DNA of 64,000 nucleotides, taken from the NCBI GenBank assembly GCA_045538535.1, contig JAZSRN010000053.1, positions 15,315 to 79,314 on the forward strand. Direction: 5' to 3'. Position 1 is the first letter of the stretch. Each line of letters opens with the position of its first letter. A program made the position numbers and the translations under genes. Positions 14,555-19,430 of this stretch are shown in pieces. This DNA comes from Candidatus Gastranaerophilaceae bacterium (lineage in GTDB: Bacteria > Cyanobacteriota > Vampirovibrionia > Gastranaerophilales > Gastranaerophilaceae). The notes beneath the pieces are model-generated. The model was not told where the DNA came from, did not search any database, and worked only from the letters and a program-made list of their open reading frames with translations.

Positions 14555-14619
14555 AAGAAGTGAGCCGAAATAAAGTTAGAAGAAACAAGTTTTGGTAAAC
14601 GAACCAGAAAAGAACTCGT

Positions 14620-14692
14620 GGGGGTTTAGCTCAGCTGGTAGAGCACCTGCTTTGCACGCAGGGGGTCAGGAGTTCGAATCTCCTAACCTCCA
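14620..14692 (+). tRNA. tRNA-Ala (anticodon UGC), CCA not encoded
   Basis: Cloverleaf folded by hand. Acceptor GGGGGTT/AACCTCC carries the G3:U70 alanine identity pair. D arm GCTC..GAGC, anticodon loop TTTGCAC, T arm AGGAG-TTCGAAT-CTCCT. Confidence 0.93.
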
Positions 14693-14699
14693 AAATTTA

Positions 14700-14728
14700 A
14701 AAAGACCTGTATCAAACAGGTCTTTTTT
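14700..14728 (+). terminator. Rho-independent terminator after the tRNA
   Basis: AAAAGACCTGT-atcaa-ACAGGTCTTTTTT. Confidence 0.85.
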
Positions 14729-14839
14729 ATTGTCCCACAAGGGTTTTCAGAGTTCAATGGCTCCAAAATTGATATATCTTTTTTATATACAATAAAATTA
14801 GCCTAAAAGCTAGGTGTAGCAATACTTATAGGAGGTTTT

Positions 14840-15037
14840 ATGAGAGAGGACAGGTTTAGGAGAGTCGAACACCAATGGGAAATTAACATGATTAAAGGTA
14901 AAAATTTTTCTGAAGAAGATAAAATAAAAATAGGAAAAAGTTTTTTAGAAATGATGAACCATTTTTATTCTGATCCAAAAAATGAAAAAGAATTTTGGGA
15001 ATGGTATGAGAAAAAACATGGACCTATGCAACTCTAA
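14840..15037 (+). CDS. Small hypothetical protein (65 aa, W/E/K-rich)
   Basis: Strong RBS TAGGAGG 5 nt upstream of the ATG, and a terminator downstream. Confidence 0.45.
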   Translation: MREDRFRRVEHQWEINMIKGKNFSEEDKIKIGKSFLEMMNHFYSDPKNEKEFWEWYEKKHGPMQL

Positions 15038-15128
15038 ATGAGTAAATAAAAATCTTGTTTTTTATGTCAAAGTCAATAACGGAGCCTTTTTCAAGAGTTC
15101 GGATGTTGTTACGTAAACTCCAAAATAG

Positions 15129-15160
15129 AAAACCGAATGACATCTGTTATTCGGTTTTTT
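15129..15160 (+). terminator. Rho-independent terminator
   Basis: AAAACCGAAT-loop-ATTCGGTTTTTT. Confidence 0.7.
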
Positions 15161-15161
15161 A

Positions 15162-15398
15162 TTTTTCGTCATTGCGAGAGCGAAAGCCCGAAGCAATCTA
15201 GCCTTTGTCGATTTTAATTGGTCGGAAGTTTGCATTTTCAAACTAGACGAAAACGGTCTTTTCTTGCACTTTTTTGCACACTTTTGCATTAACCTTGCAC
15301 AAAATTGCACCAATTTTGCATACTTTTGCATTCTCTAGTAGGGTTGACTTCAACCAAACACTATTCTTTTTCGGTAGACTGAAGTCTACCCTACTTGC
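15162..15398. repeat. Composite ~235-bp repeat, copy A (GC-rich hairpin + GGTCGGAAGT..GACGAAAACGGTCTTTT core + phased TTGCA array + terminal stem-loop)
   Basis: Aligns end to end with 16424-16655 in direct orientation. Ends in a 16-bp imperfect inverted repeat, AGTAGGGTTGACTTCA (15337-15352) and TGAAGTCTACCCTACT (15380-15395). Confidence 0.85.
15264..15331. repeat. Array of seven TTGCA(C/T) motifs phased at 10-11 bp, copy A
   Basis: Motif starts at 15264, 15274, 15284, 15295, 15305, 15316 and 15326. T/A tracts between motifs share the same phase. Confidence 0.85.
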
Positions 15399-15440
15399 TA
15401 CTGGCTGATAAAGTGGTCATTTTTTTTAGCATTTTGAATT

Positions 15441-16280
15441 TTAGTGGTGACAGCCGTAGCCGAATCTACTGGTATCATACCCTAAGGCTGTTAAGTATGG
15501 GTAATTAAAGTTGTTACCAGGAGATTCAAAAATGCGCTTTACTTCAAGCAGTTTATTATTCTTTTCTGCTAAGGCAAGTATTACTTTACGCATGTGCTTT
15601 TTTACTTCTGGTGAAATTGAGTTAAATTCTTCAATTGTTGTAGTCAAGTCAATTAATCTCTGTACAAGAGAATATCTACTTTGTTTCCAGTATTTTGGTT
15701 TAATATCTAACATTTTTATAACGTATTCTATGTTATTTTCATCGATTTTTAAAATGGCATCTAATAGTTTTTCTGGTTCATATTCCATTTTTACATTAAC
15801 CCCCCAATATATTCCTGGGACTATAGTCGATTTTGTCTCTTTAGCATAGTGATTAATATCATTGGCAATTTTTCTTGCTTCATTACGAACATCTTTTATT
15901 GTGTTTTGTGAGGTTTTATTTGCTCTTTGTCCTTGATAAGATGAAATACTCTGAGAATTTGACTGAATATTTTGTGTTTCCTGAAAAATTGATTTAAATT
16001 CATCTATATTAAGTAGTTGATCATTGGTTTTATCATATAAGGACATTTGAAAATTATCGATACCTAATTCATTAATCTCTTTTTGAGAGATATACATATC
16101 TTTAGGCGCATTATCAAGCATGTTAAACGTCTTATAAATTATGTTATTAGCGGTTTCTGTTCTGTTATTTTGTGCAGTACCAGCCATAGGTGATGCCAAC
16201 GCTGTTGTTAATACCATACATTGTAATGCCTTTTTAGGCGTTGTAAATGAGGTATTTGATTGAGTGGGAGTAATCGTCAT
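15441..16280 (-). CDS. Hypothetical protein (279 aa) with one EF-hand-like loop
   Basis: RBS AAGGAA. DKTNDQLLNIDEF resembles a Ca-binding loop. Otherwise unrecognised. Confidence 0.45.
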   Translation of the reverse strand: MTITPTQSNTSFTTPKKALQCMVLTTALASPMAGTAQNNRTETANNIIYKTFNMLDNAPKDMYISQKEINELGIDNFQMSLYDKTNDQLLNIDEFKSIFQETQNIQSNSQSISSYQGQRANKTSQNTIKDVRNEARKIANDINHYAKETKSTIVPGIYWGVNVKMEYEPEKLLDAILKIDENNIEYVIKMLDIKPKYWKQSRYSLVQRLIDLTTTIEEFNSISPEVKKHMRKVILALAEKNNKLLEVKRIFESPGNNFNYPYLTALGYDTSRFGYGCHH

Positions 16281-16423
16281 ATAAATTCCTTTCTTATCTT
16301 TAATACTTTGATTGCAACAAAATTAAAACCTGTAAAAAAAAAATTTGCTATTAATTCAAGAATGAGCTTGTAGAAAAATTTTCCTAAATAGTTCAAATTG
16401 ATTGTCAAAACATATAGAAAGTA

Positions 16424-16655
16424 TTTTTCGTCATTGCGAGGGCAAAAGCCCGAAGCAATCTAGTTCTTACCAACTTTAAACGGCCGGAAATTTACCAATC
16501 CAAACTGGACGAAAACGGTCTTTTCTTGCACTTTTTTTCACTTTTTTTCACACTTTTGCACTAACCTTGCACAAAATTGCACTGTTTTTGCACTTAAAAA
16601 ATTGTTGGGTTTTACCCAACCTACCCACTATTTTTTCGGTAGACTGAAGTTTCCC
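16424..16655. repeat. Composite ~235-bp repeat, copy B
   Basis: Direct repeat of 15162-15398. Its right end supplies the last codons and stop of ORF 16628-17071 and a hairpin, GTTGGGT-ttt-ACCCAAC. Confidence 0.85.
16526..16593. repeat. Array of seven TTGCAC/TTTCAC motifs phased at 10-11 bp, copy B
   Basis: Motif starts at 16526, 16536, 16546, 16556, 16567, 16577 and 16588. Confidence 0.85.
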
Positions 16656-17071
16656 ATACATGCTTTTATAGATTCAAAGAATTCTTCATCAGACATCGGC
16701 TTAAATCTAGACTTAATAACTCCAGTACTTTCATTCAATGTAATTGATTTATTAGGAACAAAACCATTCATTAATACAATTTCAGATTTTGCTTTAATAG
16801 GTTGTTCAAATTTAGGGAGGGCTTCAGCTATTGTAGATAATCCACCATATTTAAAAGGATTGGTAAACATATTCAAGAAACAAGTTTTTTTACCTTTATA
16901 TTTTGCACCCATTGAAAGCATTACACTATCTTGTGTTAAAGCTGTATTTGGTAAAGTTTTATTTACTAATGTTGTAGCTTGTAGCAATTCCCTTATTCCA
17001 TTTTTTGTTGGGGTATTGGTTACTAAATTACGGCATTGAACTTTTGACACACAATCTACAAAATTTACCAT
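16628..17071 (-). CDS. Hypothetical protein (147 aa)
   Basis: Strong RBS AAGGAG 7 nt upstream of the ATG. Preferred over the overlapping plus-strand ORF 16602-17039, which starts inside the repeat. Confidence 0.5.
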   Translation of the reverse strand: MVNFVDCVSKVQCRNLVTNTPTKNGIRELLQATTLVNKTLPNTALTQDSVMLSMGAKYKGKKTCFLNMFTNPFKYGGLSTIAEALPKFEQPIKAKSEIVLMNGFVPNKSITLNESTGVIKSRFKPMSDEEFFESIKACMGNFSLPKK

Positions 17072-17217: not shown

Positions 17218-17276
17218 ATAAAAATTATCAAACCAACTGTTCTTTTTTCTCAAACCTAGTGTCAAAATACAATTGT
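17218..17276 (-). promoter_or_regulatory. Shared promoter box U, copy 1 (gene strand TTGACA..TTGAGA-N18-GATAAT)
   Basis: About 47 of 58 positions are identical to 18372-18429 by hand alignment. GATAAT lies at 17224-17229 on the minus strand. Confidence 0.5.
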
Positions 17277-17280
17277 CCAG

Positions 17281-17530
17281 TTTGGTCGGAAGTAAAAAGT
17301 AAAACTGTCATGCTGAACTTGTTTCAGCATCTTGCCACTTAGGCGTGTTCACTACATTCTGGTGAGACCCTGAAATGAATTCAGACTGACAAAATGGTCG
17401 GAAGTCTATAAATCCAAGCTGGACCAAAACGGACTTTTGATGGACTTTGTTTTTCCATTTTTATACACCCTCACCCGAGCTTTGGGCACCCTCTCCTACA
17501 AGGGGCGAGGGTAATAAAAGTCCTATTTGA
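17281..17530. repeat. Mosaic of GC-rich hairpin modules, block C
   Basis: GGTCGGAAGT occurs at 17284 and 17396. The core CTGGACCAAAACGGACTTTT (17419-17438) is shared with blocks A and B. Hairpins are ATGCTGAA/TTCAGCAT (17310-17330) and ACCCTC/GAGGGT (17488-17512). Confidence 0.75.
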
Positions 17531-17559
17531 GAATTTTGAAGGAGTAAATAAAGTCGGGT

Positions 17560-18312
17560 TTAACCTTTTCTTATTTTTTCCATTTTTTCAATCAAGGTTC
17601 TTTCAATAATTTCATACTTTTCTTCAAAAGCACATTTTTTATTAATATTCACTTTAGAACCATATTTCATAGATTCATTGAACGCTAATGCTTCGTTAAT
17701 AATGGCATATCTAAAAAACTGCAAGGCATTTACTTGTTTTTCTTCCGGCATTGTTGCTAAAAACTTATTCAAACGATTTTCAAACCTTTTTTGCCAATTA
17801 AAAAGTTTATCTAATATTGAAATGCTACTATAAATATTTTTTTCAAAAAAGTTCGCAATAGGCTTATTAATAGAATTTACTCTTGCATTTATTTTTGGAT
17901 TTAAAAGACTTACAAATAAATGAAAAGTTTCATGCATAAGGAATTCACTATCGTATTTCTTAATTTTGTATTTATGATAACTTGTTGCACCGTCTTTGCT
18001 AGCTTTTACACCAAGATATAAATTATTTTTAAATCTATGAAAATAACCAAGTGTTTGTGAAGTCCACATATTAACAGGACGAACATCTAATTTAAAATTT
18101 TTTGGTATAAAGTTTTTTGAAAGAACGTATTTCATTTCCTCTATTGTCATAAACCCTTTTTTCATTTTTTCATTTGCTAATTGATAAAATTCAGCATTAA
18201 GTTCTTGGGCTTTTACAAGTCCAGATGTAACAGGGCCTTTAGGACCTACTATATTACGAACAATTTGAGATTTATTGGGGATAGTTTTTATCATGCTAAA
18301 CCTAAAACTCAT
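17560..18312 (-). CDS. Hypothetical protein (250 aa) with HExxH motif
   Basis: FLMHETFHLFV is a zincin-like HExxH. No signal peptide. The start codon is uncertain because no clear RBS is present. Confidence 0.45.
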   Translation of the reverse strand: MSFRFSMIKTIPNKSQIVRNIVGPKGPVTSGLVKAQELNAEFYQLANEKMKKGFMTIEEMKYVLSKNFIPKNFKLDVRPVNMWTSQTLGYFHRFKNNLYLGVKASKDGATSYHKYKIKKYDSEFLMHETFHLFVSLLNPKINARVNSINKPIANFFEKNIYSSISILDKLFNWQKRFENRLNKFLATMPEEKQVNALQFFRYAIINEALAFNESMKYGSKVNINKKCAFEEKYEIIERTLIEKMEKIRKG

Positions 18313-18371
18313 AAATTTTAAATTTTGACTAAATATTTACGATATTAAGTTTGTAAGTTGATTGAAACGCA

Positions 18372-18429
18372 ACAAAAATTATCAAGCTCACTGTTCTTTC
18401 TTCTCGAATCAAGTGTCAAAACACAGTGT
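18372..18429 (-). promoter_or_regulatory. Shared promoter box U, copy 2
   Basis: Aligned to 17218-17276. GATAAT lies at 18378-18383 on the minus strand. Confidence 0.5.
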
Positions 18430-18522: not shown

Positions 18523-18867
18523 ATGCAAAGAATTGTACGAAATACCTTGTTAAATTACATACCTAACAATTTCACTATAGAAAAAGAGATTAACACAGCA
18601 AGAGTTTATGAGCTTAATAATAAACCTATCAAAAATCACGATATAATTTACTTATGCGAAAGAGAAATTAGAGCAAAGGACAATTTTGCCCTACAATTTG
18701 CGATAGAAAAAAGCAAGGAGTCTGTAGGTTGGGTGAAACCCAACAAAATTTATCTACAAGTTGTCCAAAGAGATTATTTCGTTTTTTCTTCTAATTTATT
18801 TTTCATTTTTGCCGCCAAAGGAGTTGATACGGCAGGAGCTATTACTCGTTTTGCAATTATTGATTGA
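18523..18867 (+). pseudogene. Truncated duplicate of the photolyase 5' end (66 codons), then read-through into unrelated sequence
   Basis: 18511-18720 matches 20661-20870 with 7 mismatches. Homology stops abruptly at 18720. The remaining frame is antisense to ORF 18774-19430. Confidence 0.8.
18724..18746. repeat. Hairpin element GTAGGTTGGGTGAAACCCAACAA, an inverted copy of 16602-16624
   Basis: Its reverse complement matches 16602-16624 at 22 of 23 positions. It starts 3 nt after the photolyase-duplication breakpoint. Confidence 0.8.
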
Positions 18868-19430
18868 AGTACAATTGCTGTAAATGTACTAAGGCCATTT
18901 ATTACCATATTATAACGAGGCGTTTTTTCTAGAGGTTTTAATATTTTTTCAAATCCTTTTGTAATCTTATTCACAGACATAGGGCCTAATATAAAAGATA
19001 AAACTACCGTTGTTAGACATGCCATAACATCATATGAGCCCATAAATAATCGCTTTTCACGTGAATAATCAGGATTAGTAAAGGATTGAGATGTACTTAC
19101 AATCCCCGTCATTAAATCTTTCAATATATTACCAATAAGCACTGCATTAATTATCGTTTTTCCTAAATCGTTTGTTTTATGACCACCGACTTTGTTAAAT
19201 AATTTTGCAAATTTTTCAAAAATTTTTGTTATAATTTCATCTGTTTTTTTATGGAATTTGCTTGTTGATAGTTTTTTATCAAGCTCATTTTGAGCAAGCG
19301 TACATGTTTGTGCCGCTAATTCTTTTATTTGTTTGTAGTCTTCTAGAGAAGGTGTTTTACCTAAGCGATTTATCATTCTATTGACATTTTTTAATGATTC
19401 ATAAGAATTTATTGGAGGTATTTTATTCAT
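18774..19430 (-). CDS. Hypothetical membrane protein (218 aa)
   Basis: RBS GGAGGG. Hydrophobic segments in the C-terminal half. Overlaps the upstream ORF by 8 nt. Confidence 0.5.
   Translation of the reverse strand: MNKIPPINSYESLKNVNRMINRLGKTPSLEDYKQIKELAAQTCTLAQNELDKKLSTSKFHKKTDEIITKIFEKFAKLFNKVGGHKTNDLGKTIINAVLIGNILKDLMTGIVSTSQSFTNPDYSREKRLFMGSYDVMACLTTVVLSFILGPMSVNKITKGFEKILKPLEKTPRYNMVINGLSTFTAIVLQSIIAKRVIAPAVSTPLAAKMKNKLEEKTK

What the first reader, a model, noticed from the sequence alone, without database searches (positions are those of the whole stretch)
15162..16655. Two ~235-bp composite direct repeats bracket a single ORF
15162-15398 and 16424-16655 align end to end in direct orientation. 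The shared order is as follows.
- TTTTCGTCATTGCGAG(A/G)GC(G/A)AAAGCCCGAAGCAATCTAG, a GC-rich ATTGC..GCAAT hairpin.
- A moderately conserved segment containing GG(T/C)CGGAA.
- AAACT(A/G)GACGAAAACGGTCTTTTCTTGCAC.
- A seven-unit TTGCA array.
- CACTATT(C)TTTTTCGGTAGACTGAAGT.

The two copies flank ORF 15441-16280. Copy B also contributes the last codons and stop of the next ORF (..NFSLPKK*) and a hairpin plus T-run that would terminate it. A non-coding unit this long, internally structured, kept in two copies 1.26 kb apart and partly fused to a coding end, is not explained by simple terminators. It could mediate excision or duplication of the enclosed gene.
Basis: seen in the sequence. Interest (0 to 1): 0.62.

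Follow-up and report, generated by a model that had tools for sequence, protein, structure and literature searches.

The report
Mosaic hairpin repeats between island genes
The two 240-base repeats are real, but they are two diverged members of a modular, hairpin-rich repeat family that fills gene spacers in variable, tRNA-linked islands of gut Melainabacteria, not a matched pair built to move the gene between them.

Summary
15160-15399 and 16422-16664 align in direct orientation (76% over 251 columns, E 2e-45). Each carries seven TTGCA-type motifs spaced 10.3 bp apart on average.

They are not a local duplication. Each copy resembles copies in other Gastranaerophilales genomes (88-91%) more than it resembles its partner (76-82%). 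A third unit lies at 17220-17548.

The units are mosaics with a fixed module order:
- a promoter-like box;
- an m0/m2 scaffold with GGTCGGAAGT on both sides of an exchangeable hairpin;
- either variable hairpins or the TTGCAC array;
- an m4 module or a REP-doublet end.

Two hairpin types have the REP form, a GTAGG head before the stem. In two relatives a RAYT-type Y1 transposase gene sits inside such an array next to one of them.

The unit end has replaced the last nine codons of ORF 16628-17071; a unit-less allele exists. The enclosed ORF is a complete orphan. The island starts at a strain-variable hotspot beside tRNA-Ala.

Best reading: a BIME/REP-like selfish mosaic repeat family, apparently undescribed, that marks rearrangement junctions. 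I found no evidence for excision of the enclosed gene. The function of the array is unknown.

The parts
14619..14693 (+). tRNA-Ala (TGC). It anchors the variable island and has the same orientation as all three units.
   Evidence: ARAGORN; Rfam RF00005, 70.9 bits.
14840..15037 (+). 65-aa ORF inside a 520-bp segment (14610-15133) that is 97-98% conserved in many contigs with unrelated flanks.
   Evidence: The exact protein is on 22 contigs. blastn homology ends at 15125-15133 in all of them.
15094..15133 (+). Degenerate copy of the tRNA-Ala 3' end (T arm plus acceptor, ..TAAACTCCAAAAT). Strain-variable DNA begins right after it.
   Evidence: the repeat finder D8; sequence read; homology breakpoints.
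15160..15399 (+). Unit A. Modules: m1 hairpin 15168-15198; GGTCGGAAGT 15220-15229; m2b core 15240-15262; TTGCA array 15264-15330; REP-doublet right end 15337-15397. It lacks the box and m0.
   Evidence: It is 91% identical to L124 over 185 nt.
15441..16280 (-). Enclosed ORF of 279 aa. It is an orphan with an AGGA ribosome-binding site.
   Evidence: Only itself among 5.8 billion clusters. No hit in Pfam, PADLOC or NCBIfam. Depth about 0-2.5 in four gut metagenomes, against 38-76 for unit B in three of the four.
16422..16664 (+). Unit B. Modules: m1 16430-16460; GGCCGGAAAT 16482-16491; m2b 16502-16524; array 16526-16592; REPg hairpin 16604-16620 (terminator-like on the minus strand); half of the right-end REP 16637-16659. 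A decayed m0 lies at about 16400-16421.
   Evidence: It is 91% identical to L065 over 114 nt and 84.5% to L123 over 142 nt.
16628..17071 (-). ORF of 147 aa (the MVNFxDCVSKVQCRNLVTNTPTK family). Its last 11 codons plus the stop (16628-16663) are unit-derived.
   Evidence: Close homologs P0003 and P0004 end in ..ESIKDIKVIREKG, whereas the window and P0002 end in ..ACMGNFSLPKK. DNA homology to the unit-less allele L127 stops at 16663.
17220..17548 (+). Unit C. Modules: box 17220-17273; m0 17272-17293; other hairpins 17294-17395; GGTCGGAAGT 17396-17405; m2b 17416-17438; m4 17516-17548. It has no array.
   Evidence: It is 88% identical to L135 over 218 nt.
18370..18427 (+). Second copy of the box. 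On the minus strand it reads as a promoter-like TCGAGA-18-GATAAT upstream of ORF 17560-18312.
18724..18746 (+). Second REPg hairpin (GTAGG head plus GTTGGGTGAAACCCAAC), inverted relative to the one in unit B.

Best explanation
A and B are two independently assembled members of a lineage-wide, modular intergenic repeat family of Gastranaerophilales (gut Melainabacteria). In kind it is comparable to the BIME/REP mosaics of enterobacteria.

A unit has a conserved scaffold:
- a promoter-like box;
- m0, ATTGTCCGTTTTGCTCGGAAGT;
- a second GGTCGGAAGT;
- m2b, AAACTGGACGAAAACGGTCTTTT.

Into and beside this scaffold sit small exchangeable hairpin elements. After m2b comes either a set of variable GC-rich hairpins or a 53-75-nt array of TTGCAC motifs on one face of the helix. 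The unit ends in m4 or in a doublet of REP-type hairpins.

Inferred mechanism:
- The REP-type hairpins (GTAGG head plus stem) are moved in trans by a RAYT-type Y1 HUH transposase.
- The scaffold and array are carried along or spread by recombination.
- As dispersed homologous DNA, the units become the junctions at which gene-sized segments are gained, lost and swapped in a tRNA-linked hypervariable island. That is why single orphan ORFs sit between them.
- The array is most likely a cooperative binding platform for an unidentified DNA-binding protein.

Shown: family membership, mosaicism, hairpin exchange at an orthologous site, replacement of a gene's 3' end by a unit end, the hotspot context, and REP/RAYT linkage in relatives.

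Inferred only: the transposition mechanism, the recombination role and the array's function.
For: 1. Other copies exist. Extended matches occur in 8 Gastranaerophilales genome loci, in 2 metagenome contigs and in loci fetched through proteins. All show the same module order and orientation.

2. A and B are not a local duplication. B vs L065 is 91% over 114 nt, and B vs L097 is 88%. A vs L124 is 91% over 185 nt, and A vs L005 is 90% over 101 nt. A vs B is 76-82%.

3. The units are mosaics. Module depths in four gut metagenomes range from about 12 to about 1470 within one 330-nt unit, and contig breakpoints fall at module borders. The tRNA-Tyr loci L072 and L065 carry the same scaffold, with a REPg hairpin in one and the m1 hairpin in the other at the same spot.

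4. Some hairpins are REP-like. REPg and the right-end hairpins have a GTAGG, GTAAG or GTCGG head. Their stems covary (GTTGGGC/GCCCAAC vs GTTGGGT/ACCCAAC). The right end of A and of L124 is an inverted REP doublet (z about -6). A Y1_Tnp gene (PF01797, E 2e-12) in L005, and a truncated copy in L065, lie inside such arrays with REPg 26 nt upstream.

5. A unit end forms a gene junction. Homology to the unit-less allele L127 stops at 16663. The native tail DIKVIREKG is replaced by the unit-encoded ACMGNFSLPKK. The 97%-identical allele L132 has a different set of modules downstream.

6. The setting is a hotspot. The segment 14610-15133 is 97-98% conserved, and the DNA to its right is unrelated in other strains, with type I R-M and other genes there.

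7. The unit / single ORF / unit layout recurs in L005, L065, L072, L014 and L025.
Against: - No RAYT gene lies in the 64-kb window. The trans-acting enzyme is therefore unproven for this genome.
- No empty scaffold or empty insertion site was found for the scaffold itself, so its mobility is inferred only from its distribution.
- The 53-nt array core is identical in four copies from different genomes, while the adjacent scaffold differs by about 20%. That is unexpected for junk DNA. It points either to selection for a function or to very recent spread, and neither is explained.
- The m1 hairpin shows no compensatory changes among 7 copies.
- The copy number in this genome is unknown. Only three copies were seen in 64 kb, and all three are in one island.
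Confidence: 0.68

Rival explanations
1. Excision or duplication pair. A and B are a matched pair of direct repeats. Recombination between them loops out or duplicates ORF 15441-16280.
For: They are in direct orientation 1.26 kb apart, with shared exact stretches of up to about 30 nt. The enclosed ORF is absent from four related metagenomes although the units are abundant there. L025 shows a comparable layout in which long direct repeats bracket a unit plus one ORF.
Against: A and B are only 76-82% alike, and each is closer to copies elsewhere. No junction or circle was detected. The same units flank most ORFs in such islands, so nothing is specific to this gene. No recombinase lies nearby.
Confidence: 0.1
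2. Site-specific cassette boundaries. The units are attP/attC-like sites of small single-gene elements that accrete in tandem at tRNA genes, with the recombinase supplied in trans.
For: Units lie less than 100 nt downstream of tRNA genes and in the tRNA's orientation in L072, L065 and L124, and near tRNAs in L025 and the window. Copies of tRNA 3' ends flank segments at window 15094-15133 and three times in L025. The size (about 240 bp) and the phased short repeats recall integrase arm sites (my own knowledge of lambda attP).
Against: The units share no core sequence with the tRNA 3' end (window). Gene orientation relative to the units varies: the same gene family points leftward in the window and rightward in L005. 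Homologous genes do not end at fixed unit borders. No integrase lies within 10 kb here or in the annotated loci.
Confidence: 0.1
3. Shared cis-regulatory platform. The unit is mainly a regulatory region. The box and m4 act as outward-facing promoters. The TTGCAC array serves as head-to-tail binding sites for a winged-helix (OmpR/PhoB-type) regulator or a nucleoid protein that co-regulates the island's orphan genes.
For: The box matches TTGAGA-18-GATAAT upstream of two minus-strand ORFs. m4 ends in TTGA, followed by a -10-like TATAAT before a plus-strand ORF in L005. Seven motifs at 10.3-bp spacing fit cooperative binding on one helix face. The array sequence is invariant across genomes. Arrays lie 90-220 bp upstream of plus-strand ORFs in L124 and L123.
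Against: Three of the six arrays (A, L005, L132) lie between convergent genes or face no gene. Promoter-like matches in the region are no more frequent than in shuffles (19 found vs 18.4 expected). This reading does not explain the hairpin mosaicism or the module-wise copy numbers.
Confidence: 0.1
4. Structured non-coding RNA gene or genes.
For: One gut metatranscriptome holds contigs of relatives' copies of m1-m2 and of the unit C hairpins.
Against: Whole-unit folds are not better than shuffles (z -2.0 and -1.3). There is no Rfam match. m1 shows no covariation. Contigs carry no strand information, and DNA carry-over cannot be excluded.
Confidence: 0.03

Closest known systems
BIMEs (bacterial interspersed mosaic elements: REP palindromes combined with extra-REP motifs, some binding IHF or gyrase) of enterobacteria (from my own knowledge)
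   Same: They are extragenic mosaics of about 100-300 bp built from a few short modules in a constrained order. They contain REP-type palindromes in direct or inverted pairs plus non-palindromic motifs that may bind architectural proteins. They often lie at 3' ends of genes.
   Different: The sequences are unrelated and the phylum is different. The scaffold has GGTCGGAAGT on both sides of an exchangeable hairpin. The seven-unit helically phased TTGCAC array has no BIME counterpart. The link to tRNA genes and hypervariable islands is strong.
REP/REPIN elements with RAYT (Y1 HUH) transposases (from my own knowledge)
   Same: The hairpins are short and imperfect, with a GTAG-type head 5' of the stem and compensatory stem changes. 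Inverted doublets occur, as at the right end of A and of L124. In relatives a Y1_Tnp gene is flanked by the cognate hairpin.
   Different: Only two of the modules are REP-like, and most of the 240-bp unit is not. In the relatives the second REP lies inside the RAYT ORF rather than downstream of it. No RAYT was seen in this window.
Neisserial intergenic mosaic elements (NIME/dRS3), Correia elements and 'minimal mobile elements' (from my own knowledge)
   Same: These are repeat mosaics that lie between genes in variable regions. They are thought to serve as substrates for recombination that swaps gene cassettes between strains.
   Different: Neisseria relies on natural transformation and 20-bp dRS3 repeats, which also serve as phage integration sites. 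Nothing comparable was shown here.
Integron attC sites and cassette arrays
   Same: Single, mostly orphan ORFs are separated by structured imperfect-palindrome repeats in arrays. The REPg stem even fits GTTRRRY/RYYYAAC.
   Different: There is no integrase or attI. ORF orientation varies. The units are two to four times longer than attC sites. The 7-bp stem with a 3-nt loop lacks the L boxes and extrahelical bases. Cassette borders are not fixed.

Membership tests
REP/REPIN-RAYT system | Short imperfect palindrome with a conserved GT[AG]G-type head 5' of the stem | tested here: met
   REPg copies in the window, L005, L065, L072, L082, L123 and L132 mostly carry a GTAGG, GTAAG or GTCGG head (L123 reads TTAGG). 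The stems covary C-G and T-A. The right-end hairpins also start with GTAGGG. This applies to two modules only, not to the whole unit.
REP/REPIN-RAYT system | A cognate RAYT (Y1_Tnp) gene in the same genome, flanked by the REPs | tested here: inconclusive
   This is met in the relative L005 (PF01797, E 2e-12, REPg 26 nt upstream and an inverted copy inside the ORF). L065 has a truncated copy. There is no RAYT in the 64-kb window. The whole genome could not be searched.
REP/REPIN-RAYT system | High copy number, dispersed, extragenic | tested here: inconclusive
   The elements are dispersed over many loci of related genomes. Module depths are 10-300 times those of neighbouring single-copy genes in gut metagenomes. 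This window, however, holds only three units and two REPg copies, all in one island.
BIME-like mosaic repeat | Recurrent combinations of a small set of motifs in constrained order, with members differing by presence or absence of motifs | tested here: met
   The module map covers 9 or more loci. The order is always box, m0, [hairpin], GGTCGGAAGT, m2b, [array or hairpins], then m4 or the REP end, always in that orientation.
Integron cassette array | IntI integrase and attI next to the array, with attC sites carrying R''-L''/L'-R' boxes | tested here: not met
   No integrase lies within 10 kb. ORF orientation varies. The only GTTRRRY/RYYYAAC pair is a 17-nt hairpin with no L boxes.
Local tandem (segmental) duplication | The two copies are each other's closest relatives, and the flanking unique sequence is duplicated too | tested here: not met
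   B is 91% identical to L065 and A is 91% identical to L124, against 76-82% for A vs B. Nothing outside the unit is duplicated.
tRNA-targeting integrative element (att sites) | Direct repeats of the tRNA 3' end bounding the element, with a tyrosine integrase | tested here: inconclusive
   A degenerate copy of the tRNA-Ala 3' end at 15094-15133 bounds the 65-aa-gene segment. L025 has three copies of the tRNA-Met 3' end. Units A, B and C carry no tRNA-derived core, and no integrase was found.

The most novel reading that the evidence does not exclude
The unit / single ORF / unit arrays could be a REP/RAYT-driven counterpart of an integron. In this reading, GTAGG-headed hairpins at the unit ends act as left and right ends for the Y1 HUH transposase. 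Its gene is itself one of the 'cassettes' in two relatives. Any single gene bracketed by two like-oriented hairpins could then be excised as single-stranded DNA and re-inserted at another unit. This would shuffle a repertoire of orphan proteins at tRNA-linked hotspots. The invariant TTGCAC array would be the docking platform for a host or element protein. The evidence does not exclude this. The gene-unit junction at 16663 lies a few bases from a hairpin head, and the same gene family occurs on either side of units in both orientations.
Probability: 0.1. Interest if true: 0.72.

Novelty: new member of a known kind. Interest (0 to 1): 0.36.

Why it matters
Gut Melainabacteria are uncultured and their genome dynamics are almost unstudied. 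Two full-text searches for repeat families in this group found no description.

This locus shows three things:
- Their variable, tRNA-linked islands are built from single orphan genes interleaved with mosaic repeat units.
- Such units can rewrite the 3' ends of genes.
- At least some modules look like substrates of a RAYT-type transposase.

This matters for annotation, because unit-encoded protein tails and spurious ORFs inside units will be called as genes. It matters for assembly, because contigs break at these modules. It also bears on how these organisms diversify their accessory genes.

The TTGCAC array is identical across species while its surroundings drift. It is a concrete, testable candidate protein-binding site.

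Tried and rejected
I used the window, one genome-contig scan, one metagenome scan, protein-anchored loci and metagenome contig depth instead.
- The genome contigs pattern GACSAAAACGGWCTTTT was too loose. About 110 of its 120 loci were chance hits, and only 8 had extended similarity.
- Viral, phage and plasmid origin. There were no matches for the array or the core in viral contigs, and none for unit A in the phage or plasmid collections.
- Replication origin or DnaA-box cluster. TTTTGCACA fits the relaxed DnaA box TTWTNCACA, but only one or two of the seven motifs fit well. The window shows no GC-skew turn near 15-16 kb. The array is multi-copy. Rejected.
- Sigma-54 promoter. The TTGCA spacing fits the -24/-12 geometry, but the essential GG is missing. 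Rejected by reading the sequence.
- Intrinsic DNA bending. Array B ranks third in the window for phased T-tracts, but array A is not among the top eight windows. Bending is therefore not the conserved feature.
- Peptide coding. The 10-11-nt period is out of frame, and ORF 15062-15331 is a by-product of the repeat.
- Target-site duplication. GGTCGGAAGT flanks the inserted hairpin on both sides, but the two copies share a variant only in L082. This is not convincing.
- Excision joints in metagenome contigs. Those seen have short sides inside repeats and cannot be interpreted.
- A common N-terminal leader among the island ORFs. The pattern is weak and does not align significantly.
- Rfam searches and whole-unit folding gave nothing.
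Full report
**Observation**

The window is AT-rich (32.7% G+C). A blastn of the window against itself aligns 15160-15399 with 16422-16664 in direct orientation, at 75.7% identity over 251 columns (E 1.8e-45). The repeat finder reports the left 129 nt at 82% and the right 33 nt at 88%. The two longest conserved cores each occur exactly twice in 64 kb, with none expected by chance.

Array A has seven exact TTGCA motifs at spacings of 10, 10, 11, 10, 11 and 10. Array B has five TTGCA and two TTTCA at a mean spacing of 10.33. No shuffle of the window gave a run longer than two.

- ORF 15441-16280 lies on the minus strand between the copies.
- Copy B supplies the last codons (..NFSLPKK*) of minus-strand ORF 16628-17071.
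- Copy B also supplies a terminator-like hairpin with a T-run.

Three corrections apply:
- The ATTGC..GCAAT hairpin folds convincingly only in B.
- The right end of A is a 60-nt palindrome (z -5.9), and B keeps only half of it.
- A third unit at 17220-17548 shares the core.

**Organism and tools**

Relatives of the unit come from records named Candidatus Gastranaerophilaceae, Gastranaerophilales or 'Cyanobacteria bacterium SIG26/SIG28', and from animal gut and faecal metagenomes. The window therefore belongs to a gut melainabacterium.

**A family, not a local duplication**

A scan of species-representative genomes with a loose 17-mer returned mostly chance hits. Eight Gastranaerophilales loci, however, had extended similarity to the unit. 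A metagenome scan across the junction of core and array gave two more.

| Comparison | Identity | Length |
|---|---|---|
| B vs L065 | 91% | 114 nt |
| B vs L097 | 88% | 122 nt |
| B vs L123 | 84.5% | 142 nt |
| A vs L124 | 91% | 185 nt |
| A vs L005 | 90% | 101 nt |
| A vs B | 76-82% | whole unit / left 129 nt |

Nothing outside the unit is duplicated. So is the idea that A and B are a matched pair.

**Anatomy**

I mapped short module consensuses over the window and the related loci. The order and orientation are always the same:
- a 'box' (window 17220-17273 and 18370-18427);
- m0, ATTGTCCGTTTTGCTCGGAAGT;
- an exchangeable hairpin;
- a second GGTCGGAAGT;
- m2b, AAACTGGACGAAAACGGTCTTTT;
- either variable GC-rich hairpins or the TTGCAC array;
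- m4, AAGTCCGTAAAAAGTCCAATTTGGGAATTTTGA, or a hairpin doublet.

Unit A lacks the box and m0. Unit B has only a decayed m0. Unit C has the full scaffold but no array.

At the tRNA-Thr-Thr-Tyr locus of two species, the scaffold is the same. The hairpin between the two GGTCGGAAGT copies differs: REPg in L072 and m1 in L065.

In four gut metagenomes, summed contig depth within unit C varies from about 12 to about 1470 between adjacent modules. Loose ends pile up at module borders. The modules therefore have separate copy numbers and histories.

**REP-like modules and a RAYT**

Hairpins of the type GTTGGG(C/T)-loop-(G/A)CCCAAC always carry GTAGG, GTAAG or GTCGG just 5' of the stem on one strand. 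Their innermost pair covaries as C-G or T-A.

The right end of A and of L124 consists of two such headed hairpins in inverted orientation: GTAGGG-TTGAC..GTCAA and GTAGGG-TAGAC..GTCTA. Folded as DNA this gives -14 to -15 kcal/mol with z about -6.

In L005, a 178-aa ORF inside a unit/ORF array matches Pfam Y1_Tnp (PF01797, E 2e-12). One REPg lies 26 nt upstream of it, and an inverted copy lies inside the ORF. L065 has a truncated copy that is 95% identical. From my own knowledge, a GTAG-type head, inverted doublets and a flanked RAYT gene are the hallmarks of REP/REPIN systems. No RAYT lies in this window.

**The coding fusion explained**

ORF 16628-17071 belongs to a family with a conserved 60-residue N-terminus (43 clusters). 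Its closest relatives P0003 and P0004 end in ..FFESIKDIKVIREKG. The window and P0002 end in ..FFESIKACMGNFSLPKK.

At the DNA level, homology to the unit-free allele L127 stops at 16663, which is the unit's right border. The unit end has therefore replaced the native last nine codons. The hairpin half inside the ORF is decaying: it reads GGGAGAC in L132 and GGGAAAC here.

L132 is 97% identical through the gene but carries a different set of modules downstream, and it lacks ORF 15441-16280. Unit borders are thus rearrangement junctions between close strains.

**Context**

The segment 14610-15133 holds tRNA-Ala, a 65-aa ORF and a degenerate copy of the tRNA 3' end. It is 97-98% identical in contigs whose flanks differ on both sides. 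Immediately to its right, other strains carry type I restriction-modification genes or other genes. The units therefore lie in a hypervariable, tRNA-linked hotspot.

In relatives, units sit less than 100 nt downstream of tRNA genes and in the tRNA's orientation. Nearly every ORF in such arrays is separated from the next by a unit. In L025, three copies of the tRNA-Met 3' end plus about 190 nt bracket a unit and one ORF.

ORF 15441-16280 has no relative among 5.8 billion protein clusters and no family match. It is practically absent from four metagenomes in which unit modules are abundant. No integrase or other recombinase lies within 10 kb of the island.

**The array**

Its 53-nt core, CTTTTCTTGCACTTTTTTGCACACTTTTGCATTAACCTTGCACAAAATTGCAC, is identical in A, L124, L005 and L123. 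The scaffold just upstream differs by about 20% among the same copies. This is the least 'junk-like' feature of the unit.

The motifs lie on one face of the helix, which suits cooperative head-to-tail protein binding. Bending is not a consistent property. The arrays have no fixed relation to genes:
- two of six are 90-220 bp upstream of plus-strand ORFs;
- one is upstream of a minus-strand ORF;
- three face no gene.

I rejected DnaA-box, sigma-54 and coding readings; see Tried and rejected. The array's function is unknown. My best guess is a binding platform for an unidentified protein.

**Verdict**

The repeats are real and well described. They are two members of an apparently undescribed, BIME/REP-like mosaic repeat family of Gastranaerophilales. 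This family populates the spacers of variable islands and marks, and probably promotes, rearrangement junctions.

Excision of the enclosed gene through these two copies is possible in principle but has no supporting evidence. Earlier notes of this scan describe similar modular hairpin repeats in other Gastranaerophilales windows. I treated those notes as leads only, and the results above were obtained independently here. Two full-text literature searches found no description of such repeats in this group.

Noticed in passing
window 14610-15133: This 520-bp segment holds tRNA-Ala, a 65-aa ORF and a degenerate copy of the tRNA 3' end. It is 97-98% identical in 22 contigs whose neighbours differ on both sides. 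It looks like a mini integrated element or att scar that marks a hotspot. In L134 a VapE / Prim-Pol / HTH_17 / Fic element abuts the 3' half of the tRNA.
   Followed up: partly
L025 4143-5835: The last 17 nt of tRNA-Met plus about 190 nt of hairpin-rich DNA occur three times in direct orientation. The second and third copies bracket a unit and a single 238-aa ORF. This is the same layout as the finding, but here it is anchored on a tRNA end.
   Followed up: partly
L005 6257-6793; L065 6338-6646: A RAYT-type Y1 transposase gene sits inside a unit/ORF array. It has an inverted copy of its own REP hairpin in frame within the ORF (..NVGQVCPTD..). The L065 copy is truncated just after that hairpin.
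   Followed up: partly
window 17304-17391: The hairpin modules of unit C (GTCATGCTGAACTCGTTTCAGCATC and its neighbours) reach summed contig depths of 400-1470 in gut metagenomes, far above the other modules. They also appear in one gut metatranscriptome. They may be shared with other taxa.
   Followed up: no
window 15441-16280, 17560-18312, 18774-19430 and ORFs between units in L005, L014, L045, L065, L072, L124: Many island ORFs begin M-(K/R/Q)-I/V-(N/T/S/Q) and carry a ..P.F(K/G).. motif within the first 25 residues. This could be a shared leader. The pattern is weak and did not align significantly.
   Followed up: partly
window 17216/18375: Contigs in two metagenomes join the upstream region of ORF 16628-17071 directly to a box copy more like the one at 18375. 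In those strains the segment holding unit C and ORF 17560-18312 is absent or placed elsewhere.
   Followed up: no
window 15062-15331 (minus strand): This 89-aa ORF is produced entirely by unit A, with KCAKKCKK-type repeats from the array. It should not be annotated as a gene.
   Followed up: yes
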